A stretch of DNA of 64,000 bases from Candidatus Bathyarchaeota archaeon (GCA_016783455.1 JADHWN010000001.1:41930-105929), one strand, 5' to 3'; positions 22,128 through 44,180 are shown, counted from the stretch's first letter. Translations and numbers: made by a program. The notes: a model not told the origin generated them from the sequence alone.

Positions 22128-23708
22128 TTAGTAAAGGAGGCCTTCGTCCTTCTTCTCGGCCTCGGCCTTCTCCCGGGCCTCCCTGAGGAGCCCGTAGATG
22201 TCGGGGGTGCGCCCTCCGTGGCGGGTCTCCCTCATGGCGGTGCGGATCATGACCGGGACGGGGACGAAGGGCCCCACCAACACGGCCTCCCCCTGCTCCA
22301 GGGCGGGGAGGTCCCCAAGGAGGTCCTCGCTGAAGGACTCCGAGGCGGCCTGGATCGTCCTCTGGTCCTGGCTGTTCACGATGCGGAGGATGGCGAGGTT
22401 GCTGCAGTTCGCCAAGATGTCCGGGTCTAAGCGGCGGGGCCTCTGGCTGATGACCGTGAGGAAGACGCCGAACTTAGCGCCCTCGGCGGCGATCCTCGCC
22501 AGGATGTCCCTGCTGAACTTTCCGCCTCCCTCGTCGGGTGGAGACGCGAATCGGTGGGCCTCCTCGACGAAGACGAATATGGGTGGTCTTGCCCAGGGCT
22601 CCTTGCGGAACTTGGCGTTCCAGATGCGGCGGAGGAGCATGCCGACGACGACGTCCTGGACGTAGTCGGTCATGCCGCTGAGGAAGATGTCGGACATGTG
22701 CTGGGGCTGGAAGAACCTGCGGACGTCGACGTCGCCCTCGGTGAAGATACCGCGGCGTCCCAGGTCCTCGAGGCGCATGATGACCCGTGAGATGCGCTCC
22801 TTGCCCTCCGCCTTCTGGGCCTCCATCTCCGCCTCAAGGTTGTCGATGATGTCCTCCAGCGTGTACTTGGGATTCTCCGCCCTCGCCTTCCGCACGGCGC
22901 GGCGGAGGAGGATAGTCTGGAGGCTGCCGGTGATCCTGGCGAGGGCGAGGAGCTCGGGGAGGCTGCAGCCTGAGACGCTGAGGCGGAGGGGGACGACGTG
23001 GGGGGCCTCGTACGCCTCGGCGGACTCGGGGCGGTAGACCGTGACCTTGTCGTGGAACTCGTCGCTGAGACGGCCCTCCGGGTCCTGGGTCATGTTGGCG
23101 TAGTCGCCGTGGGCGTCGATGACGAGGACCGTGGCCCCCTGCCTCAGGAGCTCCTCGATGATTCGGCCGGCGAACCAGCTCTTGCCGTAGCGGGTCATGG
23201 CGAGGATGGCGGTGTGCCTGTGGAGCTCCCTGCCGCTGAGGGGGATCTTCACCGACTCCCTGTGGAGGAGGTGGCCCACGTCTAGGGGGAGGTCCCGCTC
23301 CTGTAGGGTGAATAGCTCCTTGAGGAGAGCGTCGGTGGCCCTCTTCACGGGGGTTCCGGGCATCGGGGGGGTGCGGGGTCTCCGGACGTCGCGCCTCCCG
23401 TGCTCCTCGTGGATGTAGCCCAGGATCTTGACCGAGGCGATCACCTGGAGCATCTCGTCTCCGAGGCCGATCTCCCTCTGCTTCCAGACCGCCCCGGGGG
23501 TGGTGCGCTGGTCGTAGAAGGGGTGGCGGCTGTAGAGGCTCTTCACCTGGCCCAGGACGTCCACCTTCCTAGCGGTGCCGTCCGGGAGCTGCTCCTCGAG
23601 CTCTATCTGGACGTACTCGTAGCTCCGGGGCTTGGCGTCGGGGCTGGCGATGTTGAACTCGAAGAAGTTGGGGTTCGCTTGGCCGATTATCACTCCGTAC
23701 TCAGTCAT
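22128..23708 (-). CDS. herA: HerA-family FtsK-like ATPase/helicase.
   Basis: Start at MTEYGVIIG, about 526 aa. HAS-barrel-like N-terminus. Walker A AILAMTRYGKSWF. DEAH-like Walker B PIFVFVEEAHRF. The ATG overlaps the nurA stop (ATGA). The track ORF extends spuriously upstream in the same frame. Confidence 0.75.
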   Translation of the reverse strand: MTEYGVIIGQANPNFFEFNIASPDAKPRSYEYVQIELEEQLPDGTARKVDVLGQVKSLYSRHPFYDQRTTPGAVWKQREIGLGDEMLQVIASVKILGYIHEEHGRRDVRRPRTPPMPGTPVKRATDALLKELFTLQERDLPLDVGHLLHRESVKIPLSGRELHRHTAILAMTRYGKSWFAGRIIEELLRQGATVLVIDAHGDYANMTQDPEGRLSDEFHDKVTVYRPESAEAYEAPHVVPLRLSVSGCSLPELLALARITGSLQTILLRRAVRKARAENPKYTLEDIIDNLEAEMEAQKAEGKERISRVIMRLEDLGRRGIFTEGDVDVRRFFQPQHMSDIFLSGMTDYVQDVVVGMLLRRIWNAKFRKEPWARPPIFVFVEEAHRFASPPDEGGGKFSRDILARIAAEGAKFGVFLTVISQRPRRLDPDILANCSNLAILRIVNSQDQRTIQAASESFSEDLLGDLPALEQGEAVLVGPFVPVPVMIRTAMRETRHGGRTPDIYGLLREAREKAEAEKKDEGLLY

Positions 23709-24997
23709 CAGTCTATCTCCCTCAGGGAACGTCGGGTGCCCCGTATGTCGAGTCCCGCCTCCTCGAGGCGTCGGACGATGAAGGGCTCGTACCTGCTCGT
23801 GTAGAGGTTCCTGTCGAAGCGGGCGAGGGTGTCCGTCTGCTTCAGGGGGAGGTTGTACTCGACGTCGTTGCAGTACCAGTGGAGGAGGTGGTTCAAGACC
23901 TTTTCGAGGGGCCCCGCCTCCCCCTCGTGGAACCTGTTCCCCGCCTGGTTGATCCAGGGCTCGTGGTGGCCGAGGCTGTGGGCGGCGAGGTCGACCCTGA
24001 AAGGGCGGGCGTCCGAAGTGGGCTTCCAGTAGGTGGTGGCTACCCCAGGGCACTGGAAGAAGGTGCTTATGGAGGTGATGATGGACTCTGCGGTCTCCGC
24101 TGGGAGAGTCCTCCGTATACGCGTGTAGAGGGCTGGGGCGTTCTCCCGCCCGTAGTAGATGGAGGGGGCGAGGAGCAGGGGCCGGGTGTACCCCTCGGCG
24201 GGGGCGCACACGTCGACGAGGTGGGTGTCGCAGAGGGGGCGGGCGTCGAGGAAGGGCTTCAGTGCCTCCCGGTCCGCTGCGTCCCAGGCCTCCATGCGGA
24301 TGCCGAGGTCGAGGGGGGTAGGCGCGTCCTTTAGGAGGGTGGCGGTCCTGCTCAGCCCGGCGTCACGTAGGGCCCTCCTGAGGAGGTGCATGTGGAGGTA
24401 GAAGACGGTGGAGTCCTTGGAGACGGCGGCGAGTGGGAAGCCGTTGTCGTACGCCAGCCGGCGGAGGTCGGCGAGGCTCGTGAAGAAGTCCCGGAGGAGC
24501 ACGGGGTGGTGGCGGTACTCGCGGATGGCGTAGGGGAACCGGGCGATGTAGAGGCTGCCGTCCAGGAGGACCAGGGGCCTCAAGCCCGCGTCGAGGGCCT
24601 TCCGGGCCGCCTGAGCTGCCGCGTCGTACTCGGCGATGATGCGGGCGTATCCCGGGATGAACCCCCTGTCCCGGTTGTCGTATGTGTCCTGGACGTTGAT
24701 CTTGACAGTCTTGGTGAGAGTAGGCTGCTGCCCGGGAGTGTGGGTGATGGCGAGGGCCCGGGCGACGGCGATGAATCCTCCGTAGGCGTACCGGGACTGC
24801 TGGACGCCCCCGTCGACGGAGATGAGGGCGTGAGGGCGGTCGTCGGTGTCGGCTTCGTGGGGCGTCCAGTGCTTCAGGAGGGTGTCTGAGAGGGCGGGGG
24901 GCGTCCCGGGCTCCTCCTGGTCGGCCTGGAGGTCCTTTGTGACTCGTTCCAGCTCGTCGTAGAACTCGTCGAAGAATAGGTCTCGTACTTGGGACAT
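23708..24997 (-). CDS. nurA: NurA-family 5'-3' nuclease.
   Basis: Start at MSQVRDLFFDEF, about 429 aa. The NurA catalytic block ALISVDGG is present. It sits immediately upstream of herA and is translationally coupled to it. Confidence 0.65.
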   Translation of the reverse strand: MSQVRDLFFDEFYDELERVTKDLQADQEEPGTPPALSDTLLKHWTPHEADTDDRPHALISVDGGVQQSRYAYGGFIAVARALAITHTPGQQPTLTKTVKINVQDTYDNRDRGFIPGYARIIAEYDAAAQAARKALDAGLRPLVLLDGSLYIARFPYAIREYRHHPVLLRDFFTSLADLRRLAYDNGFPLAAVSKDSTVFYLHMHLLRRALRDAGLSRTATLLKDAPTPLDLGIRMEAWDAADREALKPFLDARPLCDTHLVDVCAPAEGYTRPLLLAPSIYYGRENAPALYTRIRRTLPAETAESIITSISTFFQCPGVATTYWKPTSDARPFRVDLAAHSLGHHEPWINQAGNRFHEGEAGPLEKVLNHLLHWYCNDVEYNLPLKQTDTLARFDRNLYTSRYEPFIVRRLEEAGLDIRGTRRSLREID

Positions 24998-25148
24998 TCC
25001 GTGTCGTCTGAAGATTGTGTGTCTAGGCTTAAATCTTTGAGAGGTGGATGAAAGTGCTCCGAGGGGGTGGTTCGTGCATAACCGGAGGTCAACCGGTTGT
25101 TCATCGCACGTGAATAGAAATATTAGCGTTAACGCCGTAGGGCATATC

Positions 25149-27852: not shown

Positions 27853-28189
27853 CTTTTTCCCTCCTTTTTCTCAGTTCTTCAGGCGATATCTCGATGTGGA
27901 AGTCCCTGAGCTTGTAGTACCTCAGCGCCCGGGCCTCGTCCTCCAGGGTCACGACCCTGGTCTCGACGAGGCCGGCCTCCCTGAGCTTCTTGAGGTGCAC
28001 CTTGGCGAGGGCCCTGCTGATCCCAACGTCCTTGGCTATGCCGCTCAGGTAGCTCTCGCCCTCCGTGAGTGAGGACAGTATCTGGAGCCTTGAGATGTGC
28101 CCCAGCGCCTTGAGCTTGGACGCCAGCTCTTCGATTTCCACGTCTACACGCCTACGGAAACATGTAATAATTTGATTACATATAAGCAT
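27842..28189 (-). CDS. ArsR/SmtB-like winged-HTH transcriptional regulator.
   Basis: HISRLQILSSLTEGESYLSGIAKDVGISRALAKVHLKKLREAGLV is an ArsR-type HTH. Confidence 0.55.
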   Translation of the reverse strand: MLICNQIITCFRRRVDVEIEELASKLKALGHISRLQILSSLTEGESYLSGIAKDVGISRALAKVHLKKLREAGLVETRVVTLEDEARALRYYKLRDFHIEISPEELRKRREKDGL

Positions 28190-28282
28190 TATGTTTCAGG
28201 TAAGGATTCAATATATCATGGAGAACGCCGTCATCGCGGGGACACGTGGGGTTATAAAACCAGAAACCCAGTACAGGGTGAG

Positions 28283-29260
28283 ATGACCATCGACCTATCC
28301 GGCGTCTTCGACGTGACCGAGATCTGGGCGGCCCGGAAGAGGATCTCGGGGATCGTCTACAGGACGCCGCTCGTCTACTCCAGCGGCCTCAGCGAGAGGA
28401 CGGGGAGCCAGGTCTACCTGAAGATGGAGTGCTGGCAGAGGTGCGGGTGCTTCAAGGTGAGGGGGGCCGTGAACCACGTCTCGTCCCTGACGCCCGAGGA
28501 GAGGGGGCGGGGGCTGGTCACCGCCTCCAGCGGGAACCACGCGCTGGCCGTGGCCTTCGCCTCGCAGCTGTTCGGGGATCATCCGACCAGGATCTACGTC
28601 CCGGAGGACGTCGACCCCGCTAAGGTGAAACGGATTCTGGCCTGGGGTCCGGACCTCGTGTACCACGGCAGGAGCTTCCAGGAGACCTTCGACGAGGCGC
28701 GGCGATACGCTAAGGAGAACGGGTCAGTTTTCGTTCACAGCCACGCGGATCCCAAGGTGATCGCTGGGCAGGGCACCATCGGCCTGGAGGTCATGGAGGA
28801 CCTACCCGACGCCGAGGCGATCATCGTCCCAATAGGTGGGGGAGGGCTGGTCTCGGGGATATCGTCGGCGGTGAAGACCGTCTCGGAGGAGGTCAAGGTC
28901 TACGGCGTGGAGCCGACGGCCGCCCCGGGGGCCTACAGGTCCCTGAGGGAGGGGGTGTGCCATGAGACTCTGGATGTGAGTGAGAGCATCGCCGACGGAT
29001 TGCTGGGGGGGTTCGGGAGGCTGCCCTTTGAGATCTGCAGGCGGACGGTGGACGACACGTTCCTAGTCGATGATGGGGAGATCGTGGAGGCCATGGCTGC
29101 GTTCCAGCAGGAGGAGCAGGTGATGGTGGAGCCCGCTTCGTCGGTGGGGCTCGCTGCCATGCTCTCCGGTAAGATCAGGTTGCAGGACAGGAAGGTCGTG
29201 CTGGTGGTCACGAGCAGAAACATCGATGCGTCAAGATACAACCAGCTCATTAAACTCTAA
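28283..29260 (+). CDS. Threonine/serine dehydratase (threonine ammonia-lyase-like, PLP fold-type II).
   Basis: Start at MTIDLSG. The PLP-lysine motif CFKVRGAVN (compare SFKIRGA) and the glycine loop IVPIGGGGLVSGI are both present. Confidence 0.8.
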   Translation: MTIDLSGVFDVTEIWAARKRISGIVYRTPLVYSSGLSERTGSQVYLKMECWQRCGCFKVRGAVNHVSSLTPEERGRGLVTASSGNHALAVAFASQLFGDHPTRIYVPEDVDPAKVKRILAWGPDLVYHGRSFQETFDEARRYAKENGSVFVHSHADPKVIAGQGTIGLEVMEDLPDAEAIIVPIGGGGLVSGISSAVKTVSEEVKVYGVEPTAAPGAYRSLREGVCHETLDVSESIADGLLGGFGRLPFEICRRTVDDTFLVDDGEIVEAMAAFQQEEQVMVEPASSVGLAAMLSGKIRLQDRKVVLVVTSRNIDASRYNQLIKL

Positions 29261-29303
29261 CATTAATATTTCAGTCACACCTAGAACCCCACAGGTGTAA
29301 CTC

Positions 29304-29554
29304 ATGAGCAAAGTTATAGAGTACACCAGGGACATCTTCGGAGACGAAGACGAGTACAGGTGCTGCTACCGCGGCTACCTCGGCAACAAGTACGCTTCCT
29401 CGTCCTCTCCAACAAACGCCTCCTCTTCCTCCACGAGAAGGGCATCTCATCCGACTTCGACAAGATAGTGGATGTCCCCTACGACGAGGTCGCCGACTGC
29501 AGCTGCGTCGACCGCAACCTCATCGCCATTAAAACCATAGAGAAGTTTCGTTAA
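29304..29554 (+). pseudogene. Frameshifted paralog of the small bacterial-PH-domain-like protein encoded at 32771-33082.
   Basis: Frame 1 reads MSKVIEYTRDIFGDEDEYR...GNKYA. It then switches by +1 near 29395 to ...FLVLSNKRLLFLHEKG...IVDVPYDEVAD, which is the 29360-29554 ORF. Together these recapitulate MSKVIEYTKGILGDEDQFK...ILCNQRLLFIHEKG...ILEIPYDRVQEY of the intact paralog. This is either a single-nucleotide indel or a sequencing error. Confidence 0.5.
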
Positions 29555-29624
29555 ATGACGAAAATTTCACTAATTAGCGAAAGTATTTATGAGTCGGATG
29601 TTAGTAAAGTAGCATGGACATCGA

Positions 29625-30260
29625 ATGGCTATGAAACTTACATCCAAGAAATCATACAGAGTCATAGAGCACCTGCTCAAGCAACCCGAGAGCAGCCAAC
29701 TGGGGCTCTCAAACGAGACAGGGGTAGCCCTGGGACACGTGAACAAGATAATCAACTACATGCACGACCTGAACATGGTCTCCAAAAAGTCCCGAAGCTA
29801 CATCCTAACGGACCCCCTCCGACTGCTGGAGAAGATCAGCTTCGAGCGCCCCCTCAAACGGCTGGAGACCACAACGTTCCGCCTTCCCACAACCTCAATC
29901 GTGGAGAGCGAGGAGATCTTGAACAATGCCTGTAATAAAAACAACGTCGACTACGCCCTGACATCCTTCAGCGGCCTAAGACGCTACTACGAGTACCACA
30001 TATCATACCCCTCCATCCACGCCTACGTATCAGACCCAGGGATCGAGACGAAGATAGAGCACGGCGAAGGCGCCATACCCGTCACCCTCCTCAAACCAGA
30101 CAGGCCCGAGATACTCGTCAACTCCCTTGAGATCGACGGACTACGCGCCTGCGACAGGATCCAGATCGTCGTCGACCTGTTCTCAAGCGGATACGGCAGG
30201 GACGCCGCCATGAAGTTCCTAGAGGTCATCCAGCATGGGACAGAGGAACATACTAGCTGA
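29625..30260 (+). CDS. Winged-HTH regulator, AbiEi-like putative antitoxin.
   Basis: 211 aa. N-terminal HTH (LGLSNETGVALGHVNKIINYMHDLNMV). It overlaps the downstream nucleotidyltransferase gene by 26 nt. Confidence 0.45.
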   Translation: MAMKLTSKKSYRVIEHLLKQPESSQLGLSNETGVALGHVNKIINYMHDLNMVSKKSRSYILTDPLRLLEKISFERPLKRLETTTFRLPTTSIVESEEILNNACNKNNVDYALTSFSGLRRYYEYHISYPSIHAYVSDPGIETKIEHGEGAIPVTLLKPDRPEILVNSLEIDGLRACDRIQIVVDLFSSGYGRDAAMKFLEVIQHGTEEHTS

Positions 30261-31029
30261 CCACTCCTACCGGGAGCTCCTCAGCCTACTCGACTGGTTC
30301 TACCTCCACGGACCCATCCCCATCATCATAGGCGGCTGGGCTGTCTTCCTCTACAACTCATATCTCGGATCAGCGGACATCGACCTCGTAGGCCCTAGCA
30401 TGGGCGGCCTCTTCAATAACACCCTTGAGGGCTTCGAGCGCAGCCAGGGCTACGAAGCGGTCACAACCGACAGGTTAGGCCTGCAGACGAGCTTCAGGAA
30501 GCCCGTGATAGAAAACGGGGAGATAGTGGGCCACGTCCAGATCGACGCGTGCACCTACGAGCAGGACACCGGGGGCTTCCACGAGGACCCCTCCATGAAG
30601 CTCCCGTACGCCCTGTGCGCCGAAGCCGACCTCCGCTCCCACGTAAAACTGGACAGCAAGAGAGAGGCCTACATCCCAAGGAAGACCCTGCTCCTCCTCT
30701 ACAAACTCAAAGCCCTCAGGGACAGAACCCACGACCTCAGGACAAAAGGCCCGATACTCGGTTCCGAGAGGAGGAACTGGCTACGCGACAAACGCATAAA
30801 AGACGGAGCAGATCTCATGGCACTGCTGGACCCCCAGCCGAGAACCTGCACCCTAGCAGAGGAACTGGACACAAACCTACTGACCAAGATAATCGAAAAC
30901 CATTCCCTCCAGTTCACCCTGGAAAGCCTAGAAGAACTGCCGAACATGGAGGAAGCACTCAGCCTGTACAGAAACGCAAGCCGAGAGCAAGTAGCAGATT
31001 GGGTAAAAGACACGGTAACACGTAGCTAG
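30235..31029 (+). CDS. AbiEii/DUF1814-like nucleotidyltransferase, putative toxin.
   Basis: 264 aa. IIIGGWAVFLYNSYLGSADIDLVGP matches the AbiEii KGGTAL...R-x-S-x-DID-h nucleotidyltransferase signature, a minimal-NTase G[GS]...D-h-D-h pattern. Confidence 0.5.
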   Translation: MGQRNILADHSYRELLSLLDWFYLHGPIPIIIGGWAVFLYNSYLGSADIDLVGPSMGGLFNNTLEGFERSQGYEAVTTDRLGLQTSFRKPVIENGEIVGHVQIDACTYEQDTGGFHEDPSMKLPYALCAEADLRSHVKLDSKREAYIPRKTLLLLYKLKALRDRTHDLRTKGPILGSERRNWLRDKRIKDGADLMALLDPQPRTCTLAEELDTNLLTKIIENHSLQFTLESLEELPNMEEALSLYRNASREQVADWVKDTVTRS

Positions 31030-31499
31030 ACAAAACACCATTCCAGACACTGAAAGCCTTTGGTACAACGACACCTACAAGGAAAATACAGGTGAAACAA
31101 ACAATCCCACAGTGAAAAATACGCCAAACGATAAAAGAAACCTGAAAACAGCCCCTCCCAATCCGATGCCAGGCAAAAACACGGTCCATTCCCAGAAAAA
31201 CTATCTGAGGGGGGAGGGGGGGGTCATGCATCCGCCTATGAAAAACGCCCCTGCAGACGAAAGGAACCCCGGAAAACCCCCGACACGACCCCGTTCATAC
31301 CAAAAGGGGTACCTATTCATACCAAAAACACGCTCAAAACCCCTCAACGGAACAGTGAAAACACCACACCCAACACAACAGACCTCGCACGAAAAAAACC
31401 CCACGGAACGCTTATCCCCTGCCAGCCACACGCGAAAAAAACGCTTATCATATGTCACCACTCACAACCCCCAAATACACCCGCAGCCACACTACAACC
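31030..31499. repeat. A/C-rich (+ strand) low-complexity noncoding tract 1, internally repetitive.
   Basis: Almost devoid of T and poor in G on the + strand. Internal direct repeats include ttcataccaaaa (twice), acagtgaaaa (twice) and acgcttatc (twice). It contains G6-A-G8-TCATGCATCC at 31209-31233. Confidence 0.6.
31209..31233 (+). repeat. Repeat motif GGGGGGAGGGGGGGG-TCATGCATCC, copy 1. A G-quadruplex-capable run followed by a palindromic ATGCAT core.
   Basis: The same motif recurs at 43324-43349 as G8-A-G7-TCATGCATCC. Confidence 0.7.
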
Positions 31500-32549
31500 A
31501 TGAGACTCAACACCCTACCCAGGGCAGGCCTAGCGGTCACCCCTACACCCCTCCAGCCCCTCCCCAACCTCACCGAGCACCTCGGAGGCCCCACCATCCT
31601 CGTCAAACGCGACGACCTCACAGGCCTCGCATTCGGAGGCAACAAGGCCCGCAAGCTCGACTACCTCATGGGAGACGCCCTCCAGAAGAAGGCTGACATC
31701 ATCGTCACGGGCGCCGGATTCCACAGCAATTGGTGCACCCAGACTGCCGCAGCCTGCTGCAAGCTCGGCCTCCCCCTCATCCTCGTCAAGAGCGGCCCCC
31801 AGGACGGATACGACCCCGACCAGTGGGACGGCAACCACCTCCTCCACCACCTCTACGGAGCAGACATCACCATCCTCAAGGAGGGCTCAGGCCAACGCCG
31901 CCAGGAGATCACAGACGAGCTCCGCGCACAGGGCCGCAACCCCTACCTCATGCCCGTCGGAGGCTCCACCCCCCTCGGCGCCGCAGGATACGTCCACTGC
32001 ATGCTCGAACTCCTCACCCAGGCCGTGGACCAGACCACAGAGATCACCCACCTCTACCACGCCACCGGCTCAGGGGGCACCCAGACCGGACTCGCCCTCG
32101 GCGCCAAGGCCCTCAACACAGGCATCAAGGTCGTCGGCGTCTCCACCGGCTTCGGCGACAGCGCAAGACGCATAGAGAACCTCCTCAGGCTCTCCCACGA
32201 GACCGCCGAGTTCCTGGAGATCGAGACACGTCTCACCGAGGCCGACATCAACGTCCTCGACCAGTACAGCGAGGGATACGGATACGCCACCGAGGCCAAG
32301 ACAGAGGCAATAAAACTCCTCGCAGAGAAGGAGGGCCTCCTCATCGACCCCGTCTACACCGCCACCGCCATGGCAGCCCTCATCGACGACGCCCGGACAG
32401 GAAAGCTCACCGAAGACGACACAGCCGTATTCCTCCACACAGGAGGCACAGCAGCCCTATTCCCATACCGCGACACCCTCAAAGCCCACACCCAGGGGAA
32501 ACCCCTCCCATGGAAGATCCCCCAGTGGAATCCAGACTACACCGGGTAG
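31500..32549 (+). CDS. ACC deaminase / D-cysteine desulfhydrase family PLP enzyme.
   Basis: Start at MRLNTLPR. ILVKRDDLTGLAFGGNKARKLDYLM holds the PLP-lysine in the G-G-N-K-x-R-K-L-E/D context. The glycine loop is HATGSGGTQTG. Codon third positions are almost exclusively A or C. Confidence 0.75.
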   Translation: MRLNTLPRAGLAVTPTPLQPLPNLTEHLGGPTILVKRDDLTGLAFGGNKARKLDYLMGDALQKKADIIVTGAGFHSNWCTQTAAACCKLGLPLILVKSGPQDGYDPDQWDGNHLLHHLYGADITILKEGSGQRRQEITDELRAQGRNPYLMPVGGSTPLGAAGYVHCMLELLTQAVDQTTEITHLYHATGSGGTQTGLALGAKALNTGIKVVGVSTGFGDSARRIENLLRLSHETAEFLEIETRLTEADINVLDQYSEGYGYATEAKTEAIKLLAEKEGLLIDPVYTATAMAALIDDARTGKLTEDDTAVFLHTGGTAALFPYRDTLKAHTQGKPLPWKIPQWNPDYTG

Positions 32550-32770
32550 AACCCACAAAGAAGACAGAACCCAAACCCGAGAACCCCAGAAACCTCCCTA
32601 ATAAATGATAAGAAGAGAGGGACAGGAGAGAAGTGGCCTCTGCAGGAGGACCCTGCCCCCTCCAACCGTAGAACACCCAAAACCCCCTTAAGAGCATGAT
32701 GGGCAACAAAACCTAACCAACCCCTCCAAAATTATAATAAACATAAAACCCAATATGTTCAGGTGCTTAA
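32550..32770. repeat. A/C-rich (+ strand) low-complexity noncoding tract 2.
   Basis: aacccacaaagaagacagaacccaaacccgagaaccccagaaacc... has the same skewed composition as tract 1. Confidence 0.5.
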
Positions 32771-33082
32771 TTGAGCAAGGTAATTGAGTACACGAAGGGG
32801 ATCCTGGGCGACGAAGACCAGTTCAAGACCAGCTTCAGGGGGACCCTCGGCAACAGCTTCGGCTACATCATCCTATGCAACCAACGCCTCCTCTTCATCC
32901 ACGAGAAGGGCACAGGAGGGTTCGACAAGATCCTCGAGATCCCGTACGACCGCGTACAGGAATACGGATTCCCTGAGCCCAACCGACTCAGCATCACCCA
33001 GAAAGAAGGTAACACGAACGAGATAGTGGTCGCTGGCTCCACCCTGTTCCTGAAGATGAGCTTAAAAGAGCTCATACCTTAA
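32771..33082 (+). CDS. Small bacterial-PH-domain-like (bPH/DUF1696-like) protein.
   Basis: 103 aa with a TTG start. GYIILCNQRLLFIHEKG...ILEIPYDRVQEY resembles the YokE-like bPH core. This is the intact paralog of the 29304-29554 pseudogene. Confidence 0.5.
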   Translation: MSKVIEYTKGILGDEDQFKTSFRGTLGNSFGYIILCNQRLLFIHEKGTGGFDKILEIPYDRVQEYGFPEPNRLSITQKEGNTNEIVVAGSTLFLKMSLKELIP

Positions 33083-33106
33083 AAATCACCTATTTTTCCC
33101 ATACCC

Positions 33107-33123
33107 TGAATAACCACCCAACC
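33107..33123 (+). repeat. 17-nt exact repeat TGAATAACCACCCAACC, copy 1. Copy 2 is at 43355-43371.
   Basis: An exact match between two A/C-rich intergenic tracts 10 kb apart. Confidence 0.6.
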
Positions 33124-33189
33124 AGGGCATACCCCTCCCCACACAAAGGACATAACATAAGACCTATGCCACCCACAACACGAGTGGAG

Positions 33190-33519
33190 GAGGTGCAGCG
33201 ACGGCCCCCCAGGGCTCAAGGGCTCACCCACGGACAGGGGCGCACGACCCCCCTCAGGCTCGGGACCCCGCGAGCGCCAAACGTCCAGGCTTAGGCCGCT
33301 CCCTCCCGGGCCTCACCGGTTCACCCGACTACAGCCCCCACGCCCCCCTACGAGGGCGCAGAGAACAACCGCCGACCCCGCGGGACAAGCCCTCGACGGA
33401 GAGCCGCACGTCTTACCCGCAGGCTTCACCCCATCACACCGAGGTTACTGACCCCTCCTATAGCCCGTTTGAAGGCAAGGGGAAGGGCTAGCTCCCGGTC
33501 CTACCCGCCGCTGCACCAA
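33190..33519 (-). ncRNA. Signal recognition particle RNA (archaeal 7S / SRP RNA) candidate.
   Basis: The minus-strand RNA contains CCGGUGAGGCCCGGGAGGGAGCGGCCUAAGCCUGG. This closely parallels the universally conserved SRP helix-8 region of E. coli 4.5S, CCAGGUCAGGUCCGGAAGGAAGCAGCCAAGGC, including a GNRA-type GGGA tetraloop. The 5' GGUGCAGCGGCGG pairs with the 3' CCGUCGCUGCACC to form the long terminal helix. Length is about 326 nt. The region is GC-rich and noncoding. Confidence 0.65.
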
Positions 33520-33553
33520 CCACAACGCAGCCCGACGATAAAACCGTTACGCA

Positions 33554-34417
33554 CTAGAGGATCGGCACCAGACCGAACTTAACAAGGCTCAGAAGCAGGT
33601 TAGAGACCATCAGCGCCAGGAAGCTGAACATAGTCATCCGCTCCAGAACCCTGCCCCACCCCGGCTTCGTCGCCAGATACTCCCTCACCATCTGCCCCCC
33701 ATCCAGCGGATAGATGGGTAGCATGTTCACCATCGCCAGGTTAATCGACAGAAAGTAAAGCCAGTTCAGGAACACACCCACCACCCGGGGCAGGCTTCCC
33801 CCCACCACGGAGAAGACACCCACCACCAGCAGCCCCGTCACCAGGTTCACCAGGGAACCGGACGCGAAGACCCGCAGCTTAGACATCAGCCCAGCCCTCC
33901 CCAGGGACTCCTCATCGGGCTCCACGGCCCCCCCGAAGGTCACCACCGCCACCAGCAGCGCCGCCGACCTCACCTCGATCCCCTCAACCGCGCACATCAC
34001 CCCGTGGCTCAGCTCATGGAGAAGGATCACCACCCCCGCCGCAGCCAGGAACCAGACCATGCTCTGAAACTGGATGGTCACCCCCGGGATCAGGGGCATC
34101 ACCGGAGACGCCTCGGCCGGCACGTAGAGGAACCTGTAAAGATTAAGGAACAGCATGTATGTCATGAACGCCACCTGACCGAAGAAGGAGGCCACACCCA
34201 CGTTCCCCACCACCCTCCAGAGCCCCGGACGCCAGCTCCCCACACGGATCAGCACCGAGTTCAACCGCGTCGACTTATACATCGCGTAGAGGGGATGAAG
34301 CTCAACCCCGAACCTCTCCAGCTTCAGGAACCTCGCCAACAAGTAGAAGACGAACCACCCCACAACTAGAAGACCTAGAGTAGCGTACGTCTCATACCAC
34401 ATGGCCAAACTTGACAC
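33554..34417 (-). CDS. Site-2 protease (M50 family) intramembrane metalloprotease.
   Basis: 287 aa, polytopic. HExxH appears in VILLHELSHGVMCA. The LDG motif appears in NMLPIYPLDGGQM. Confidence 0.75.
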   Translation of the reverse strand: MSSLAMWYETYATLGLLVVGWFVFYLLARFLKLERFGVELHPLYAMYKSTRLNSVLIRVGSWRPGLWRVVGNVGVASFFGQVAFMTYMLFLNLYRFLYVPAEASPVMPLIPGVTIQFQSMVWFLAAAGVVILLHELSHGVMCAVEGIEVRSAALLVAVVTFGGAVEPDEESLGRAGLMSKLRVFASGSLVNLVTGLLVVGVFSVVGGSLPRVVGVFLNWLYFLSINLAMVNMLPIYPLDGGQMVREYLATKPGWGRVLERMTMFSFLALMVSNLLLSLVKFGLVPIL

Positions 34418-34474
34418 CAGCGAGCTTTACTAATAAGCGAAACCCCCCTTTAAATACCGTTTGAGGAGGGAGCG

Positions 34475-35158
34475 ATGACAGACAACATCGAGGTCGAGTA
34501 CACCCAGGAACACTGGGAACTCCTCAGCAGGCTCAGGGACGAGGCCAAGACTCTCACCCGCCCCCTCGCGGAGGCTCACATCGAGGCCCTCGTCTACGGC
34601 AGCATCGCCCGCGGAGACGTCCACACCGGAAGCGACATCGACGTATTCATCCCCAGCCCACCCGCCCCCACCATCCTCGAAACCCTCATCAACCGCACAG
34701 GCATCCAGACCGCCAACAGGGAGATCATTCAGGCCACACCCACGTACGCCGCCAAGGGCTACATCCATGCAGCCGAAAACAGGAGCTACTCCTTCCCCCT
34801 CGTCCAGCTTCGAGCCCACGAACGGGAGTTCTACGACTTCGCGGGGTCCCTCACCCCCAAACAGCTACAGGATGGAACACGGGTCCCAGGAGTCGACAAG
34901 CACCTAAAGCTAATAGAGCCCACGGAACGAGGGCACACCGAGACCCCCATCCAGGGCAGGGAGGGGGTCGTCGCAAAGACCCTGGGCGTAGGCGTCACCA
35001 TCGTCCTAGACAGGGTCCGAACCCTCCAGCGCAGGGAGAGGATAGGCAGGACCGGGGTCTACATAAAACGCCCCCTCGCCCCCGACGAGACGTTCGGGGA
35101 TGTCTACCAGCAGCTGGCACGGACAAGGCCCGCTCTGAGACGCAGAATGAGAATGTAA
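34475..35158 (+). CDS. Pol-beta-superfamily nucleotidyltransferase-domain protein.
   Basis: LVYGSIARGDVHTGSDIDVFIPS matches the GS-x9-13-D-h-D nucleotidyltransferase motif. The C-terminal roughly 120 aa is uncharacterised. Confidence 0.6.
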   Translation: MTDNIEVEYTQEHWELLSRLRDEAKTLTRPLAEAHIEALVYGSIARGDVHTGSDIDVFIPSPPAPTILETLINRTGIQTANREIIQATPTYAAKGYIHAAENRSYSFPLVQLRAHEREFYDFAGSLTPKQLQDGTRVPGVDKHLKLIEPTERGHTETPIQGREGVVAKTLGVGVTIVLDRVRTLQRRERIGRTGVYIKRPLAPDETFGDVYQQLARTRPALRRRMRM

Positions 35159-35176
35159 AAAAAGGGAATTATGAGG

Positions 35177-36385
35177 CTACTCGAGGTCCTTGAAGACCCT
35201 CACCCTGAGGCCCCTGGGGACCCGGACGCCCTCGGCGAGGCGCTCCCCTATGAGGGTCGCGATCCCCCGCTCCATGGCGACGTCCACGAGGCGCCCGGTG
35301 ACGATGCCGTCGAAGACGACCGTCTCCACATCCGCCTCGTTTCTTAACCGCTCCACGAGCTCCATGACGGGCACCTCACCGATCTTGCCACCGTCCTTCT
35401 TCACCAAGACGCCCTCGAGGGTCCCCTTCAGCCCCTTGGCGACCTCGGCCAGCTCCTTGAGCATCTCGGCATCCTTAGGGTCGACCTCGGCCGCACGGGC
35501 GGGCTTCGCCACTCGAGCAGGCCTAGCTGCACGGGCAGGCTTGGCCTCCGCCGGCTTTGCGCTCTCGGCCTCCGCGAAGGGCACCCTGGCCGCCAAGGCG
35601 GCCCGTATCTCGGCTGGGGTGAGGTCCTCGACCTCCTTGCCCCTGGGGGCCCTGGCGACGTACTTGGGCTGGGCTACTTGGGTCAGCTCCTTGAGGATGA
35701 GATCTCCGCCCCTGTCCCCGTCGAGGAAAGCGGTTATCTCCTTCTTCCTCTTCACGAGGTTTATGATGGTGCGGGGGACCTTCACGCCCTCCAGGGCGAT
35801 GATGTCCGTGTAGCCGCTCTTAAGGAGGTTGTTCACGTCCGCCCTGCCCTCGACGATAAGTATCTCATTCGCCTTGCTGAGGTCGGGGGTAGCGGTTAGC
35901 TTCTCACGTCCGTAGGTCACTGCCTTGACCGTCTTGTCCTCCCTGGAGACCTCGGTGAGGAGCTTCTCGATGTCCTGGGTCTCGGTTACCACCCAGTCCC
36001 TCATGAGCTCCTTAGCCCGCTTCATTATCTGCTCCCGCTTGTCAAAGCGGACGTCAGAAATCTGTTCCACGGAGACCTTCGCCTCGCATGGCCCTACCCG
36101 GTCAACCGTCTCCATCGCCGCTGCGATGATGGCGGTCTCCGCCCTGTCCAGGCTGGAGGGGGCGACGATCCTCCCCTCGGTCCGATCCTTCGCGGACTTC
36201 AGGTCGATGTCTATCCTTCCGATCTTGCCGGACCTCTGGAGCTCCCTGAGCTCAAAGTTCTTAGGGAAGAGCCCCTCGGTCTGGCCGAAGATGGCCCCGA
36301 TGACGTCGTGCTTCTCGACGACGCCGTCGACGACGAATTTCGCCTCAATTATGTACTTTGCGCTATGCTTCTCTTTTGAACCCAT
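35177..36385 (-). CDS. dnaG: Archaeal DnaG-type primase (Toprim domain).
   Basis: Start at MGSKEKHSAKYIIEAKFVVDG. The Toprim block is EILIVEGRADVNNL...ITAFLDGDRGGDL. The Ala/Lys/Pro-rich low-complexity linker KPAEAKPARAARPARVAKPARAAE is typical of archaeal DnaG C-termini. Confidence 0.8.
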   Translation of the reverse strand: MGSKEKHSAKYIIEAKFVVDGVVEKHDVIGAIFGQTEGLFPKNFELRELQRSGKIGRIDIDLKSAKDRTEGRIVAPSSLDRAETAIIAAAMETVDRVGPCEAKVSVEQISDVRFDKREQIMKRAKELMRDWVVTETQDIEKLLTEVSREDKTVKAVTYGREKLTATPDLSKANEILIVEGRADVNNLLKSGYTDIIALEGVKVPRTIINLVKRKKEITAFLDGDRGGDLILKELTQVAQPKYVARAPRGKEVEDLTPAEIRAALAARVPFAEAESAKPAEAKPARAARPARVAKPARAAEVDPKDAEMLKELAEVAKGLKGTLEGVLVKKDGGKIGEVPVMELVERLRNEADVETVVFDGIVTGRLVDVAMERGIATLIGERLAEGVRVPRGLRVRVFKDLE

Positions 36386-36577
36386 TATGTTCACGTCTAT
36401 ATCATCTACCACTCTTGCCGCAGGTGAACGCTTCTCCCAGTGTCCACCTGGGGTTGACAGAATCAAACCCGGTCGTGAATGCAAGGAGAACGACGCCCCG
36501 TTTAGGAGGCTCGTTCGTTCGCCCCGCGGTGAGAGTGATGCGGTGTTTTCTACACCGCGCATCTAAACATCAGGCCT

Positions 36578-43371: not shown

Positions 43372-43745
43372 CGCTGAAAACGACTCCAGACGAGTCAGAT
43401 TCAGCATAAAAACGTGATGATAAGGCCTGAATACAGGGTAAAACCAGGTGGGCGGACGCCCCTGTCCCTCTGGGCAAACCCACGGCCTCACAGATAGGAC
43501 AACGCCCCCCTCAGCCGAGCTCTCTCATCCCAGAGGATTCCGACGCCCGCCCTGCCCACCTGTGCCATGTCTGGGTAACCCCGAATCACAGGCAGCCCTC
43601 CCCGAGGTCCGTCTGCATGGTGCGTCGCCTGGCGGGCACATAAACAGGAACAGGCAGCCACACTTAACCTTTACAGATGGCGTAGGCAACACAACGGGCG
43701 ACAGACGGGAACCCTCAGGGAGGCAACTACACGGAGATGGAGGCC

Positions 43746-43976
43746 TCACCGCAACCTCAATTCGCCCAGGAGCCCCCGCTTATACAGGATGTAACCCACC
43801 ACAGCGACCACAAGGATCACCATCATCGGCAGGACGACCTCAGAGAACACAGCTGGATCAGCCAGATCCCTCCCGGCAACCGCTGAGATGACGAAGACTA
43901 CTGCGACCGCAACATAGAACAGCTTCTCACGATTCTCCAAGGGCAACACTCGACTACCTAAGGAGCAGAAGCCCAC
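43746..43976 (-). CDS. Possible small two-TM membrane protein; weak call.
   Basis: 76 aa ORF with hydrophobic spans FYVAVAVVFVISAVAG and MMVILVVAVVGYILY. There is no homology signal, and the ORF lies in skewed DNA. Confidence 0.25.
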   Translation of the reverse strand: MGFCSLGSRVLPLENREKLFYVAVAVVFVISAVAGRDLADPAVFSEVVLPMMVILVVAVVGYILYKRGLLGELRLR

Positions 43977-44166: not shown

Positions 44167-44180
44167 TTCATCAACAATGT

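What the first reader, a model, noticed from the sequence alone, without database searches (positions are those of the whole stretch)
29270..35170. 5.9-kb island with extreme strand-specific base composition, independent of gene orientation
Between about 29.27 and 35.17 kb the + strand is rich in A and C and strongly depleted in T and G. Genes on the + strand, such as the ACC-deaminase-like gene at 31500-32549, use almost only A- or C-ending codons. The minus-strand S2P protease gene conversely uses G- or T-ending codons. Flanking genes (threonine dehydratase upstream, dnaG downstream) show the ordinary G-rich coding-strand pattern. The skew therefore follows the DNA strand, not the coding strand. 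That is the signature expected from long-term asymmetric deamination of a single-stranded minus strand (C to U and A to I give + strand G to A and T to C). It could reflect prior residence on a rolling-circle or strand-displacement replicon, persistent R-loop or single-strand exposure, or acquisition from a genome with different strand bias. The island carries an AbiE-like TA pair, two bPH-like genes (one broken), two nucleotidyltransferases, the S2P protease and the SRP RNA candidate. The SRP RNA argues against simple foreign origin. The M14 gene at 44181-46718 also leans towards C-ending codons, but less clearly.
Basis: seen in the sequence. Interest (0 to 1): 0.75.

Follow-up and report, generated by a model that had tools for sequence, protein, structure and literature searches.

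The report
Strand-skewed mutation domain around archaeal SRP RNA
In one group of Bathyarchaeia, a few kilobases of ordinary core chromosome around the signal-recognition-particle RNA gene have one DNA strand loaded with G and T, whichever way the genes point; this looks like a local one-strand mutation pressure strong enough to reshape codons, proteins and the RNA itself, and its cause is not established.

Summary
Window 29.2-35.4 kb is the only stretch where (A+C-G-T)/N averages +0.27, against -0.01 +/- 0.07 elsewhere. All five plus-strand genes are A/C-ending (z +2.7 to +5.4). The one minus-strand gene, the S2P protease, is G/T-ending (z -6.0). Intergenic DNA (+0.39 to +0.48) and the SRP RNA follow the same DNA strand.

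It is not a foreign island or a chimera. The order dnaG-NTase-S2P-SRP RNA is conserved across Bathyarchaeia, and both junctions recur in independent assemblies. The same skew occurs at the orthologous locus in a related subgroup, including complete chromosome CP070784.1. It is graded between lineages: S2P and NTase values anti-correlate (rho -0.87). It is absent in most other Bathyarchaeia.

The PLP-enzyme gene is strongly skewed only when it lies next to the SRP RNA. Proteins shifted in opposite directions, and G.U pairs in the SRP RNA roughly doubled. Polarised substitutions show a continuing roughly twofold excess of minus-strand C>T.

The left 2 kb is separate: a mobile two-gene cassette with an A/C-rich tail that keeps its bias in unrelated contexts.

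Best reading: recurrent single-strand exposure of the S2P/SRP-sense strand. The cause, transcription/R-loop or replication, is unresolved.

The parts
29209..35435 (.). Whole A+C-rich (+ strand) / G+T-rich (- strand) segment. It is a composite of a mobile cassette (left) and a conserved skew domain (right).
   Evidence: Maximal-scoring segment, mean (A+C-G-T)/N +0.25, against -0.014 +/- 0.068 elsewhere.
29304..29554 (+). Frameshifted fragment of a bPH-like gene. It is a direct duplicate of 32771-33082.
   Evidence: Direct repeats D1, D2 and D8, spaced about 3467 nt apart, 74-86% identical. ORF translations.
29625..30260 (+). Cassette gene 1: 211-aa protein with a weak N-terminal winged-helix hit and no family assignment.
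   Evidence: No Pfam or PADLOC hit; NCBIfam MarR-like match well below cutoff. (AC-GT)3 is +0.41. Always paired with gene 2 in other contexts.
30235..31029 (+). Cassette gene 2: 264-aa member of a family whose named hits are all Bathyarchaeota/Bathyarchaeia. It carries a GG...DIDLV motif typical of pol-beta-type nucleotidyltransferases, seen by eye only.
   Evidence: 158 homologues, no Pfam hit. Coding (AC-GT)3 is +0.42 here and +0.32 to +0.50 in three unrelated contexts.
31030..31451 (.). A/C-rich non-coding tail that travels with the cassette.
   Evidence: (A+C-G-T)/N +0.41, AT skew +0.53. Homologous core shared with the L115 tail. The L115 tail is +0.32 to +0.42. No conserved ORF on either strand.
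31452..32549 (+). PLP-dependent enzyme of the D-cysteine desulfhydrase / ACC-deaminase family. It is the most strongly skewed gene.
   Evidence: PF00291 at 7e-50; the closest NCBIfam matches are below their cutoffs. (AC-GT)3 is +0.62, z = +5.4. Orthologues next to the SRP RNA are +0.50 to +0.62; elsewhere they are +0.07 to +0.28.
32771..33082 (+). Intact bPH-like gene (103 aa).
   Evidence: PF14470 bPH_3, E = 1.3e-4, 22.9 bits against a cutoff of 23, so borderline. (AC-GT)3 is +0.37.
33198..33511 (-). Archaeal SRP (7S) RNA gene. The RNA is enriched in G and U.
   Evidence: RF01857, 108.6 bits against a gathering score of 96.5. RNA (G+U-A-C)/n is +0.23, against 0 to +0.10 in unskewed lineages. 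20-23 G.U pairs against about 12. Own BRE/TATA element at about -30.
33554..34417 (-). Site-2 protease (Peptidase_M50). It is the only protein gene on the G+T-rich strand and has inverted codon endings.
   Evidence: PF02163 at 1.4e-19. Third positions A .02, C .25, G .58, T .15, z = -6.0. Richer in V/G/F/W/C than unskewed orthologues.
34475..35158 (+). Conserved nucleotidyltransferase (NT227), divergent from S2P.
   Evidence: PF01909 at 1.2e-7. Syntenic with S2P across Bathyarchaeia and in Desulfurococcales. (AC-GT)3 is +0.43, against +0.10 in unskewed orthologues. Richer in T/P/H/Q/N/K.
35177..36562 (-). Archaeal DnaG (Toprim), the right flank. Its body is ordinary, with a slight leak of the skew into its last 300-400 nt.
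   Evidence: Toprim hits. (AC-GT)3 is +0.03. Bins at 35363-35600 are +0.20 to +0.25. A T7 tract follows the stop codon.
28097..29260 (+). Threonine/serine dehydratase-like PLP enzyme, the left flank. It is not skewed.
   Evidence: PF00291 at 5e-77. (AC-GT)3 is -0.10. The junction with the cassette recurs in independent assemblies L123-L126.

Best explanation
**What it is.** The 5.9-kb 'island' is two adjacent things that happen to share polarity.

**(1) The core, about 31.4-35.4 kb.** This covers the PLP gene, bPH, the SRP RNA, S2P, NT227 and the last few hundred nt of dnaG. It is ordinary, syntenic Bathyarchaeial chromosome. In this lineage and some relatives it is subject to a local mutation pressure that acts on one DNA strand.
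- The strand that is the sense strand of S2P and the SRP RNA loses C to T, and probably A to G, about 2-3 times faster than its complement.
- With GC content held constant, this drives that strand towards G+T and the other strand towards A+C. Third codon positions, spacers, amino-acid composition and wobble pairing in the SRP RNA all follow.
- The pattern is the one expected when a strand is repeatedly single-stranded and suffers deamination, perhaps with some G oxidation.

**Likely cause (inferred, not shown).** I think transcription-linked exposure (R-loops or open DNA) around the very highly expressed SRP RNA gene is most likely. The domain always contains or abuts that gene, and the G+T-rich strand is its non-template strand.

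**(2) The left part, 29.3-31.45 kb.** This is a mobile two-gene cassette with an A/C-rich non-coding tail. It has the same coding-strand bias wherever it sits. It is inserted here between two copies of a bPH gene.

**Shown:** the skew, that it is strand-specific, that it arose in situ at a conserved locus, that it is graded between lineages, a continuing C>T asymmetry, and the composite structure.

**Inferred:** single-strand exposure, and the link to transcription.
For: - **Strand-specific, not codon-specific.** Spacers are +0.39 to +0.48. The SRP RNA is keto-rich, with G.U pairs 20.4 against 11.9 and unpaired positions +0.18 against -0.06. On one common strand, S2P and the complement of NT227 reach nearly the same third-position composition.
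- **Mutational, not translational.** Amino-acid composition shifts in opposite directions. S2P has V/G/F/W/C at .336 against .267. NT227 has T/P/H/Q/N/K at .279 against .180.
- **Arises in place at a core locus.** Synteny is conserved. The orthologous locus in CP070784.1 (L004), where DnaG is only 67% identical, has NT227, S2P and the PLP gene at -0.36 to -0.49 on one strand. PLP orthologues elsewhere are +0.07 to +0.28. In L044 an M24 peptidase gene on the S2P strand, inside the domain, is -0.20.
- **Graded intensity.** S2P against NT227 gives rho -0.87 over 13 lineages, from none (L003, L051) to extreme (L043: -0.62 / +0.74).
- **Still operating.** At third positions plus spacers, + strand G>A is .134 against C>T .064 (2.08-fold, p = .003; flank 1.15-fold). 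C>A exceeds G>T 2.3-fold in both gene orientations, and the flank shows the reverse. Skew-raising and skew-lowering changes (44 against 60) are compatible with equilibrium.
- **Size of the effect.** A toy model needs only C>T raised 2.4-fold and A>G raised 3.1-fold.
- **Anchoring at the SRP RNA.** Every skewed segment includes or abuts the gene. In L040/L041 the RNA and the 2 kb downstream are skewed while S2P and NT227 are not.
- **The cassette is separate.**
Against: **Against the transcription link**
- NT227 lies upstream of S2P and is divergent from it, yet its template strand is the G+T-rich one. The PLP and bPH genes show the same.
- No single annotated transcript spans the domain.
  - dnaG ends in a T7 terminator-like tract.
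  - S2P and the SRP RNA each have their own TATA-like elements.
  - The SRP RNA promoter is the same in skewed and unskewed lineages.
- Oligo-T tracts on the minus strand at about 31.4 kb should stop read-through.
- The profile is a plateau with sharp edges, not a decay away from the SRP RNA.

**Limits of the evidence**
- Excess A>G on the exposed strand is not seen in recent substitutions; only 41 T sites were available.
- No dinucleotide context signature was found.
- Lineage comparisons are not phylogenetically independent, so their p-values are optimistic.
- Other genes in these genomes have A/C-rich coding strands for reasons tied to their own orientation, for example the divergent pair in L010. 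Part of the plus-strand signal could therefore be gene-specific.
Confidence: 0.45

Rival explanations
1. A replication-linked cause. In the affected lineages the segment is replicated in a way that leaves the minus strand single-stranded for unusually long. Possible routes are chronic fork pausing at the SRP RNA locus, head-on conflict with the plus-strand genes, or a local strand-displacement or R-loop-primed initiation zone. This would give an exaggerated 'leading-strand' (G+T-rich) composition.
For: - The direction of the shifts (G>C and T>A on one strand, regardless of gene orientation) is the classical replication-type asymmetry.
- Plateau-like amplitude with sharp edges suits a bounded replication domain better than decay from a promoter.
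- The G>T versus C>A asymmetry has the opposite sign in the island and in the flank.
- The effect covers genes upstream of and divergent from the SRP RNA, which transcription does not easily explain.
Against: - Cumulative GC skew shows no polarity switch. Both flanks have almost no strand bias (plus-strand genes +0.09, minus-strand genes +0.13), so the amplitude is not a mirror image of the flanks.
- The conserved core has almost no non-coding space for an origin: the spacers are 18, 57 and 42 nt.
- No Orc1/Cdc6 gene or repeated origin-box-like motif turned up in the 28.8-35.6 kb repeat scan or among the ten proteins scanned against Pfam.
- Archaeal Okazaki gaps are far shorter than 3-6 kb (background knowledge).
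Confidence: 0.2
2. Selection on RNA composition rather than mutation. The plus-strand mRNAs would be selected to be A/C-rich (little secondary structure, or a particular codon-usage class). The S2P mRNA and SRP RNA would be G/U-rich for their own reasons. The apparent strand-specificity would then come from the gene arrangement.
For: - Some genes are A/C-rich on their own coding strand wherever they lie. The cassette and its tail are one case. The divergent gene pair in L010, with a polarity switch between the two genes, is another.
- The typical gene already leans towards A/C endings, at +0.11.
Against: - S2P and NT227 shift in opposite directions, in step, across lineages (rho -0.87).
- On one DNA strand they converge to the same four-base composition.
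- Spacers, the TATA-to-start spacer of the SRP RNA promoter and unpaired SRP RNA positions shift too.
- Protein composition is dragged along.
- The PLP gene is strongly biased only at this locus.
- Recent substitutions are strand-asymmetric at weakly constrained sites.
Confidence: 0.1
3. The whole island is foreign DNA that acquired its composition on another replicon (rolling-circle plasmid, single-stranded or strand-displacement virus), or came from a donor genome with strong strand bias.
For: - The left 2.2 kb behaves like mobile DNA. The cassette and tail occur in unrelated contexts with the same bias, once directly beside a tRNA-Arg gene. In the window they sit between direct repeats of a bPH gene.
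- Close relative L044 lacks the cassette.
Against: - dnaG-NT227-S2P-SRP RNA is conserved synteny in dozens of Bathyarchaeia, and NT227-S2P-SRP RNA is conserved even in Desulfurococcales.
- The skew is graded among close relatives.
- The PLP gene is baseline elsewhere.
- The cassette has no relatives in viral contigs or plasmids.
Confidence: 0.03
4. An assembly chimera or a sequencing artefact.
For: The edges coincide with gene ends.
Against: - The right junction recurs in L033, L034 and L035. The left junction recurs in L123-L126. These come from different assemblies and samples.
- The source contig is 178 kb at 44x coverage.
- The same phenomenon is present in a complete chromosome.
Confidence: 0.01

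Closest known systems
Transcription-associated mutagenesis and strand asymmetry: excess C>T and A>G on the non-template strand, G+T-rich sense strands in mammalian genes, and tRNA genes with their flanks as mutation hotspots (Thornlow et al. 2018, PMC6130373; Green et al. 2003, cited there)
   Same: - The G+T-rich strand is the non-template strand of a very highly expressed stable-RNA gene and of S2P.
- C>T on that strand is in excess.
- The flanks on both sides of the RNA gene are affected.
- The intensity differs between lineages, as expression or repair capacity might.
   Different: - The amplitude is about ten times that of mammalian transcription skews (from my own knowledge).
- The extent is 3-6 kb rather than the RNA gene and its immediate flanks.
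- It overrides the orientation of four protein genes, whose own sense strands become A+C-rich.
- No transcript spanning the domain is evident.
Vertebrate mitochondrial strand asymmetry: the H strand is single-stranded during strand-displacement replication and suffers C>T and A>G deamination, leaving the L strand A+C-rich
   Same: - The same four-base pattern: one strand A+C-rich and the other G+T-rich, regardless of gene orientation.
- Comparable magnitude.
- Amino-acid composition is dragged along.
- The equilibrium fits best with both transitions elevated.
   Different: - This is a chromosomal micro-domain of 3-6 kb, not a whole replicon.
- There is no gradient along the segment, only a plateau.
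- The flanks are unbiased.
- There is no evidence of a replication origin.
Replication-associated GC/AT skew of bacterial and archaeal chromosomes (review: PMC3269012)
   Same: G>C and T>A together on one strand, independent of coding strand.
   Different: - It does not extend over a whole chromosome arm.
- There is no polarity switch at an origin or terminus.
- The third-position amplitude (0.4-0.7) is much higher than I know for replication skews (from my own knowledge).
- It is specific to one locus and to certain lineages.
GC-skewed R-loop-forming regions at eukaryotic CpG-island promoters and terminators (background knowledge; found in several papers)
   Same: - A G-rich non-template strand favours R-loops.
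- R-loops expose that strand, which would deplete its C further. This could be self-reinforcing.
   Different: - This has not been described for archaea, or for a multi-gene segment with mixed gene orientation.
- No R-loop data exist here.
Genomic islands / integrated mobile elements with atypical composition
   Same: The cassette and tail at 29.3-31.45 kb are variable between close relatives, lie between direct repeats, and lie next to a tRNA gene in another genome.
   Different: - The core of the skewed segment is conserved and syntenic.
- No integrase or transposase gene is present.
- The atypical feature is strand skew at unchanged GC3, not altered GC content.

Membership tests
Replication-associated strand compositional asymmetry | One strand is enriched in G over C and T over A, independent of gene orientation. 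| tested here: met
   The minus strand is G+T-rich at third positions of genes on both strands, in spacers and in the SRP RNA.
Replication-associated strand compositional asymmetry | The asymmetry extends over a replichore and switches polarity at an origin or terminus. | tested here: not met
   The domain is 3-6 kb with unbiased flanks on both sides, and cumulative skew shows no switch.
Transcription-associated mutational strand asymmetry | The non-template (sense) strand of the transcribed unit gains T and G through excess C>T and A>G. | tested here: inconclusive
   Met for S2P and the SRP RNA. C>T excess is 2.08-fold (p = .003) and G.U pairs are roughly doubled. Reversed for NT227, the PLP gene and bPH, whose sense strands are A+C-rich. 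A>G is untestable with only 41 T sites.
Transcription-associated mutational strand asymmetry | The asymmetry is confined to a transcription unit and scales with expression. | not testable with these tools
   No expression data are available. The sequence shows separate promoters and a terminator-like tract rather than one unit.
Mitochondrial-type strand-displacement asymmetry | Both C>T and A>G are elevated on the displaced strand. | tested here: inconclusive
   The equilibrium composition fits best with both elevated (SSE .0006, against .011 for C>T alone). Recent substitutions confirm only C>T.
Mitochondrial-type strand-displacement asymmetry | The skew forms a gradient proportional to the time spent single-stranded, measured from an origin. 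| tested here: not met
   Third positions form a plateau of about +0.4 with step-like edges.
Horizontally acquired genomic island | The segment is absent from the orthologous locus of relatives, or sits in variable context. | tested here: not met
   For 31.4-35.4 kb, dnaG-NT227-S2P-SRP RNA is conserved in dozens of Bathyarchaeial loci. For 29.3-31.45 kb the feature is met: the cassette is absent in L044 and L037 and occurs in unrelated contexts.
AbiE (AbiEi/AbiEii) toxin-antitoxin pair | The two proteins match AbiEi and AbiEii family profiles. | tested here: not met
   No Pfam, NCBIfam or PADLOC match for either protein at E <= 0.01, apart from a weak MarR-type helix-turn-helix hit. The architecture (small HTH protein overlapping a ~264-aa protein with a GG...DIDLV motif) resembles AbiE only by eye.
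Archaeal SRP RNA (RF01857) | Covariance-model score above the gathering threshold over the full model. | tested here: met
   108.6 bits against 96.5, model positions 1-317.
Site-2 protease (Peptidase_M50) | Pfam PF02163 match above cutoff. | tested here: met
   70.8 bits against 27.2, E = 1.4e-19.

The most novel reading that the evidence does not exclude
Some Bathyarchaeia may maintain a persistent, self-reinforcing single-stranded or R-loop zone of several kilobases, anchored at the SRP RNA locus. The G-rich displaced strand would favour R-loops, and the R-loops would deaminate that strand further. This would be an undescribed kind of chromosomal 'mutational micro-domain' in archaea, and possibly a cryptic R-loop-primed replication initiation zone. 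It would impose its composition on any gene that lands in it, and would measurably alter proteins and an essential RNA.
Probability: 0.15. Interest if true: 0.85.

Novelty: new variant of a known kind. Interest (0 to 1): 0.62.

Why it matters
**What is unusual.** Strand asymmetries are normally weak. They span whole chromosome arms when caused by replication, or are tied to each gene's own orientation when caused by transcription. Here a stretch of only 3-6 kb of core chromosome carries one of the strongest asymmetries I know of.
- Its third-position values are comparable with animal mitochondria.
- It overrides gene orientation.
- It has changed the amino-acid make-up of two conserved proteins in opposite directions.
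- It has roughly doubled the G.U wobble pairs in an essential RNA.
- Its strength varies continuously among related lineages.

**Why that is useful.** This is a natural experiment on how local DNA metabolism shapes sequence in an uncultured archaeal group. It offers a specific locus where single-strand exposure, R-loops or unusual replication could be looked for directly.

**Practical consequences.**
- Composition-based island and HGT detectors would wrongly flag this core locus.
- Rfam scores for the SRP RNA fall towards the threshold in skewed lineages. In CP070784.1 (L004) the RNA is not reported at the gathering score.

Tried and rejected
- **Foreign origin of the whole island.** Rejected on conserved synteny.
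- **Chimera.** Rejected, because both junctions recur in independent assemblies.
- **Codon-usage or translational selection alone.** Rejected because spacers, the SRP RNA and amino-acid composition also shift, and because S2P and NT227 anti-correlate.
- **Origin- or terminus-type polarity switch.** None in the cumulative skew.
- **One long minus-strand transcript from dnaG.** A T7 tract follows dnaG, and S2P and the SRP RNA have their own TATA-like elements.
- **Skewed lineages lost the SRP RNA promoter and co-transcribe it with S2P.** Rejected: the BRE/TATA element is conserved in all lineages.
- **General test of skew downstream of tRNA genes.** Not feasible, with only 9 tRNAs in 1.24 Mb of held loci.
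- **Dinucleotide context signature for an enzymatic deaminase.** Nothing beyond mild CA depletion.
- **A defined start point of the skew inside dnaG.** There is a leak of about 600 nt in L004, L038 and L043, but the data are noisy and show no crisp site.
- **A conserved minus-strand small ORF in the cassette tail.** Not conserved in L115 or L116.
- **Viral or plasmid relatives of the cassette.** None found.
- **Repeats or origin-like motifs in the island.** Only the bPH duplication was found.
- **First polarised substitution test on all sites.** Under-powered, and confounded by constrained sites. Redone on third positions plus spacers.
- **Literature search.** No paper in the held library combines 'strand asymmetry' with Bathyarchaeota.

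Full report
**1. The observation**

The window comes from a Bathyarchaeial archaeon. It carries an archaeal SRP RNA and an archaeal DnaG, and the closest genome records are Candidatus Bathyarchaeota/Bathyarchaeia MAGs. Overall G+C is 59%.

- In 1-kb windows, GC skew reaches -0.29 and AT skew +0.47 between 30.5 and 35 kb. These are the extremes of the whole 64 kb.
- The maximal A+C-rich segment is 29209-35435, with a mean (A+C-G-T)/N of +0.25.
- One-kb windows inside the island average +0.27, against -0.014 +/- 0.068 outside.

Third codon positions show the same thing. The 47 ORFs outside the island have coding-strand (AC-GT)3 of +0.113 +/- 0.094, and plus- and minus-strand genes do not differ (+0.09 against +0.13). 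The five plus-strand island genes are +0.37 to +0.62 (z = +2.7 to +5.4). The single minus-strand gene, the M50 site-2 protease at 33554-34417, is -0.45 (z = -6.0), with third-position A .02, C .25, G .58, T .15.

Non-coding stretches inside the island are +0.39 to +0.48, against -0.02 +/- 0.11 for 29 spacers elsewhere. The edges are step-like, within about 300 nt.

- Within this window, 'independent of orientation' rests on one protein gene, one RNA gene and the spacers.

**2. Not foreign and not chimeric**

*Synteny.* I anchored on DnaG in species-representative genomes and on S2P in metagenomes.
- The order g36626-dnaG-NT227-S2P-SRP RNA is conserved in dozens of Bathyarchaeial loci.
- NT227-S2P-SRP RNA is conserved even in Desulfurococcales.

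*Junctions.*
- The right junction recurs in independent assemblies L033, L034 and L035.
- The left junction recurs in L123-L126.
- The source contig is 178 kb at 44x coverage.

**3. The skew belongs to this locus in certain lineages**

Most Bathyarchaeia have baseline values for both S2P (+0.05 to +0.3) and the oppositely oriented NT227 (+0.05 to +0.2).

A subgroup with S2P at least about 65% identical shows opposed values:

| Locus | S2P | NT227 |
|---|---|---|
| L043 | -0.62 | +0.74 |
| window | -0.45 | +0.46 |
| L004 | -0.42 | +0.39 |
| L045 | -0.33 | +0.48 |
| L038 | -0.30 | +0.33 |
| L047 | -0.25 | +0.40 |

L004 is the complete chromosome CP070784.1, whose DnaG is only 67% identical to the window's. 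Others at similar distance (L003, L040-42, L048, L051) are not skewed.

- Within this subgroup the two genes are strongly anti-correlated (rho = -0.87, n = 13, p about 1e-4). These lineages are not phylogenetically independent.
- The skewed segment spans 2-6 kb and always includes or abuts the SRP RNA gene.
- In L040/L041 the RNA and about 2 kb downstream are skewed, while S2P and NT227 are not.
- Third positions must be saturated at these distances. A skew shared by such divergent lineages has therefore to be maintained, not just inherited.

**4. It is mutational and acts on a DNA strand**

*(a) Common composition on one strand.* Skewed S2P third positions are A .03, C .28, G .56, T .13. The complement of skewed NT227 is A .03, C .23, G .58, T .16. 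Their unskewed orthologues differ from these and are close to strand-symmetric. GC3 is unchanged at about .81-.84.

*(b) Protein composition follows.*
- S2P gains residues encoded by G/T codons: V/G/F/W/C at .336 against .267.
- NT227 gains residues encoded by A/C codons: T/P/H/Q/N/K at .279 against .180.

*(c) The SRP RNA follows.*
- (G+U-A-C)/n is +0.21 to +0.27, against 0 to +0.10 in unskewed lineages.
- On an RNAalifold consensus structure, G.U pairs rise from 11.9 to 20.4 and A-U pairs fall from 8.0 to 4.25.
- Unpaired positions shift from -0.06 to +0.18.
- Rfam scores are correspondingly lower: 106-119 bits against 123-129. In L004 the RNA is not reported at the gathering score.

*(d) The PLP-enzyme gene acquires the skew in place.* It is +0.50 to +0.62 when it lies beside the SRP RNA (window, L033, L037, L044, L004). 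Its orthologues elsewhere are +0.28, +0.26, +0.07 and +0.11.

*(e) A second gene on the S2P strand.* In L044 an M24 peptidase gene on the S2P strand, inside the domain, is -0.20.

**5. Is it still operating?**

I aligned the window with its closest relatives (99-88% nucleotide identity) and polarised changes that a single lineage (or the window's own clade) carries while all other sequences agree, requiring that the outgroup L037 be present.

At third positions plus spacers:
- + strand G>A occurs at .134 per G, against C>T at .064 per C. That is 2.08-fold (p = .003). The adjacent dnaG/g36626 control gives 1.15-fold.
- C>A exceeds G>T 2.3-fold (p = .02). On all sites this direction is seen in both S2P and the plus-strand genes, while both flank genes show the opposite direction.

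On the minus strand these correspond to excess C>T and G>T, the changes expected from deamination and oxidation of exposed DNA.

The predicted excess of A>G on the minus strand could not be tested, because only 41 T sites were available. Skew-raising and skew-lowering changes (44 against 60) are compatible with equilibrium.

A toy four-state model with a strand-symmetric baseline reproduces the observed composition with C>T raised 2.4-fold and A>G raised 3.1-fold. C>T alone, raised 3.7-fold, reproduces the C, G and T shifts but not the loss of A. The model shows plausibility only.

**6. The left third of the island is a different object**

*The cassette has no family assignment.* The two overlapping genes at 29625-31029 have no family match in Pfam, NCBIfam or PADLOC. 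'AbiE-like' is therefore an analogy based on architecture only.

*It is a mobile module.*
- The 264-aa protein belongs to a family of 158 homologues; every hit that carries a name is from Bathyarchaeota/Bathyarchaeia.
- With its partner gene it occurs in unrelated contexts: L115 beside arginyl-tRNA synthetase, L116 and L117.

*The bias travels with it.*
- In all three contexts the cassette is +0.30 to +0.50 while its neighbours are about 0 to +0.25.
- In L115 the non-coding DNA downstream is +0.32 to +0.42 and shares a conserved core with window 31030-31451.
- In L115 that tail abuts a tRNA-Arg gene on the opposite strand.

*Its setting in the window.*
- The cassette and the PLP gene lie between an intact bPH-like gene and a frameshifted copy of it.
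- Close relative L044 lacks the cassette.
- No viral or plasmid relatives were found.

So this part carries its bias with it, and its polarity matching the neighbouring domain may be coincidence.

More generally, strongly deviant genes are rare in the held loci: 2% below -0.2 and 4% above +0.4. They do exist, though. L010 has a divergent gene pair (+0.64 and +0.40), each A/C-rich on its own coding strand. That is a different pattern, linked to orientation.

**7. Mechanism**

*Shown:* a local, strand-specific and at least partly continuing substitution bias that hits the sense strand of S2P and the SRP RNA. It is graded among lineages and acts on whatever lies in the domain.

*Inferred:* that strand is unusually often single-stranded.

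I favour a transcription-linked cause at the SRP RNA locus for three reasons:
- The domain is anchored there.
- The affected strand is the non-template strand of that highly expressed gene.
- Stable-RNA genes and their flanks are known hotspots of transcription-associated mutagenesis (PMC6130373).

Several facts count against a simple version of this:
- The domain covers NT227, which is upstream and divergent.
- It imposes A+C-richness on the sense strands of the plus-strand genes.
- dnaG is followed by a T7 tract.
- S2P and the SRP RNA have their own promoters, and these are conserved in skewed and unskewed lineages alike.
- The profile is a plateau, not a decay.

A replication-linked cause (fork pausing or local strand-displacement synthesis) explains the indifference to gene orientation and the sharp edges better. 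It lacks any sign of an origin, a polarity switch or mirrored flanks. I rate transcription or R-loop exposure ahead of replication, and neither is established.

**8. Comparison with known phenomena, and novelty**

The base pattern is that of mitochondrial H/L-strand asymmetry and of transcription-associated asymmetry. The scale, the setting in chromosomal core DNA, the override of gene orientation and the variation between lineages match neither of these, nor replication skew. I found no report of this in the searchable literature. I classify it as a new variant of a known kind, namely local strand-asymmetric mutagenesis.

**9. Verdict**

The feature is real, robust and unusual. The foreign-origin options are wrong for the core. 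The island is a composite. The cause of the one-strand exposure remains open and can be tested directly.

Noticed in passing
window 29304-29554 and 32771-33082: A frameshifted fragment and an intact copy of a bPH-like gene form direct repeats about 3467 nt apart (74-86% identical). They bracket the cassette, its tail and the PLP gene. This looks like a duplication created by insertion or recombination. Close relative L044 keeps only a 53-nt remnant.
   Followed up: partly
window 29625-31451; L115 9397-11271; L116 494-2232; L117 6749-8358: A two-gene cassette (about 205-223 aa plus about 262-271 aa, overlapping) with an A/C-rich non-coding tail is a mobile unit of unknown function in Bathyarchaeia. 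It keeps an A/C-rich coding strand in every context seen. The tails share a conserved core (GGGGGGTCAT.GC...AAAGGAACCC.GGAAAA). It matches no Pfam, NCBIfam or PADLOC family.
   Followed up: partly
L115 11272-11346 (minus strand): A tRNA-Arg(CCG) gene lies immediately beyond the cassette's A/C-rich tail on the opposite strand. The skew starts right at the tRNA's 3' end. This fits either integration next to a tRNA gene or read-through from it.
   Followed up: partly
L010 5854-7038 (minus) and 7513-8700 (plus): A divergent gene pair in another Bathyarchaeon, one of them a class-V aminotransferase-like enzyme. Each gene is strongly A/C-rich on its own coding strand (+0.64 and +0.40), and polarity switches in the spacer (+0.44). 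This bias is linked to gene orientation, unlike the SRP-locus domain.
   Followed up: partly
L040 and L041 (SRP RNA at L041 6978-7288): The SRP RNA is as keto-rich (+0.22) as in skewed lineages, and the 2.5 kb from the 3' end of S2P downstream is moderately G+T-rich. S2P and NT227 themselves are unskewed. This may be a shifted or decaying domain.
   Followed up: no
L004 12912-13223: In complete chromosome CP070784.1, nhmmer finds the SRP RNA, but Rfam does not report it at the gathering score. In the calls that list scores, RNAs of strongly skewed loci score 108-119 bits against 123-129 for most unskewed ones. The skew may therefore cause annotation to miss the gene.
   Followed up: partly
L011 (DATKWN010000071.1): A contig labelled 'Candidatus Krumholzibacteriaceae bacterium' carries the archaeal dnaG-NT227-S2P-SRP RNA arrangement, with DnaG 64-65% identical to the window's. 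It is probably a mis-binned archaeal contig.
   Followed up: no
window 1-64000: Neither ARAGORN nor Rfam finds a tRNA gene anywhere in the 64-kb window.
   Followed up: no
window 22838-25076: This is the strongest segment of opposite sign in the window (G+T-rich, mean -0.18; GC skew up to +0.24). It covers the 5' part of a DUF87 ATPase gene on the minus strand and a 167-aa plus-strand ORF. It is much weaker than the island.
   Followed up: no
window 43448-44180: A small ORF with unusually A-rich third positions (A .34; (AC-GT)3 +0.30, z = +2.0), followed by an A/C-leaning spacer (+0.25). It lies just upstream of the M14 gene, which is itself ordinary.
   Followed up: no
window 35159-35176 (minus strand): The dnaG stop codon is followed directly by CCCTTTTTTTAC, an oligo-T tract typical of archaeal terminators. 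It lies in the 18-nt gap between the convergent dnaG and NT227 genes.
   Followed up: no
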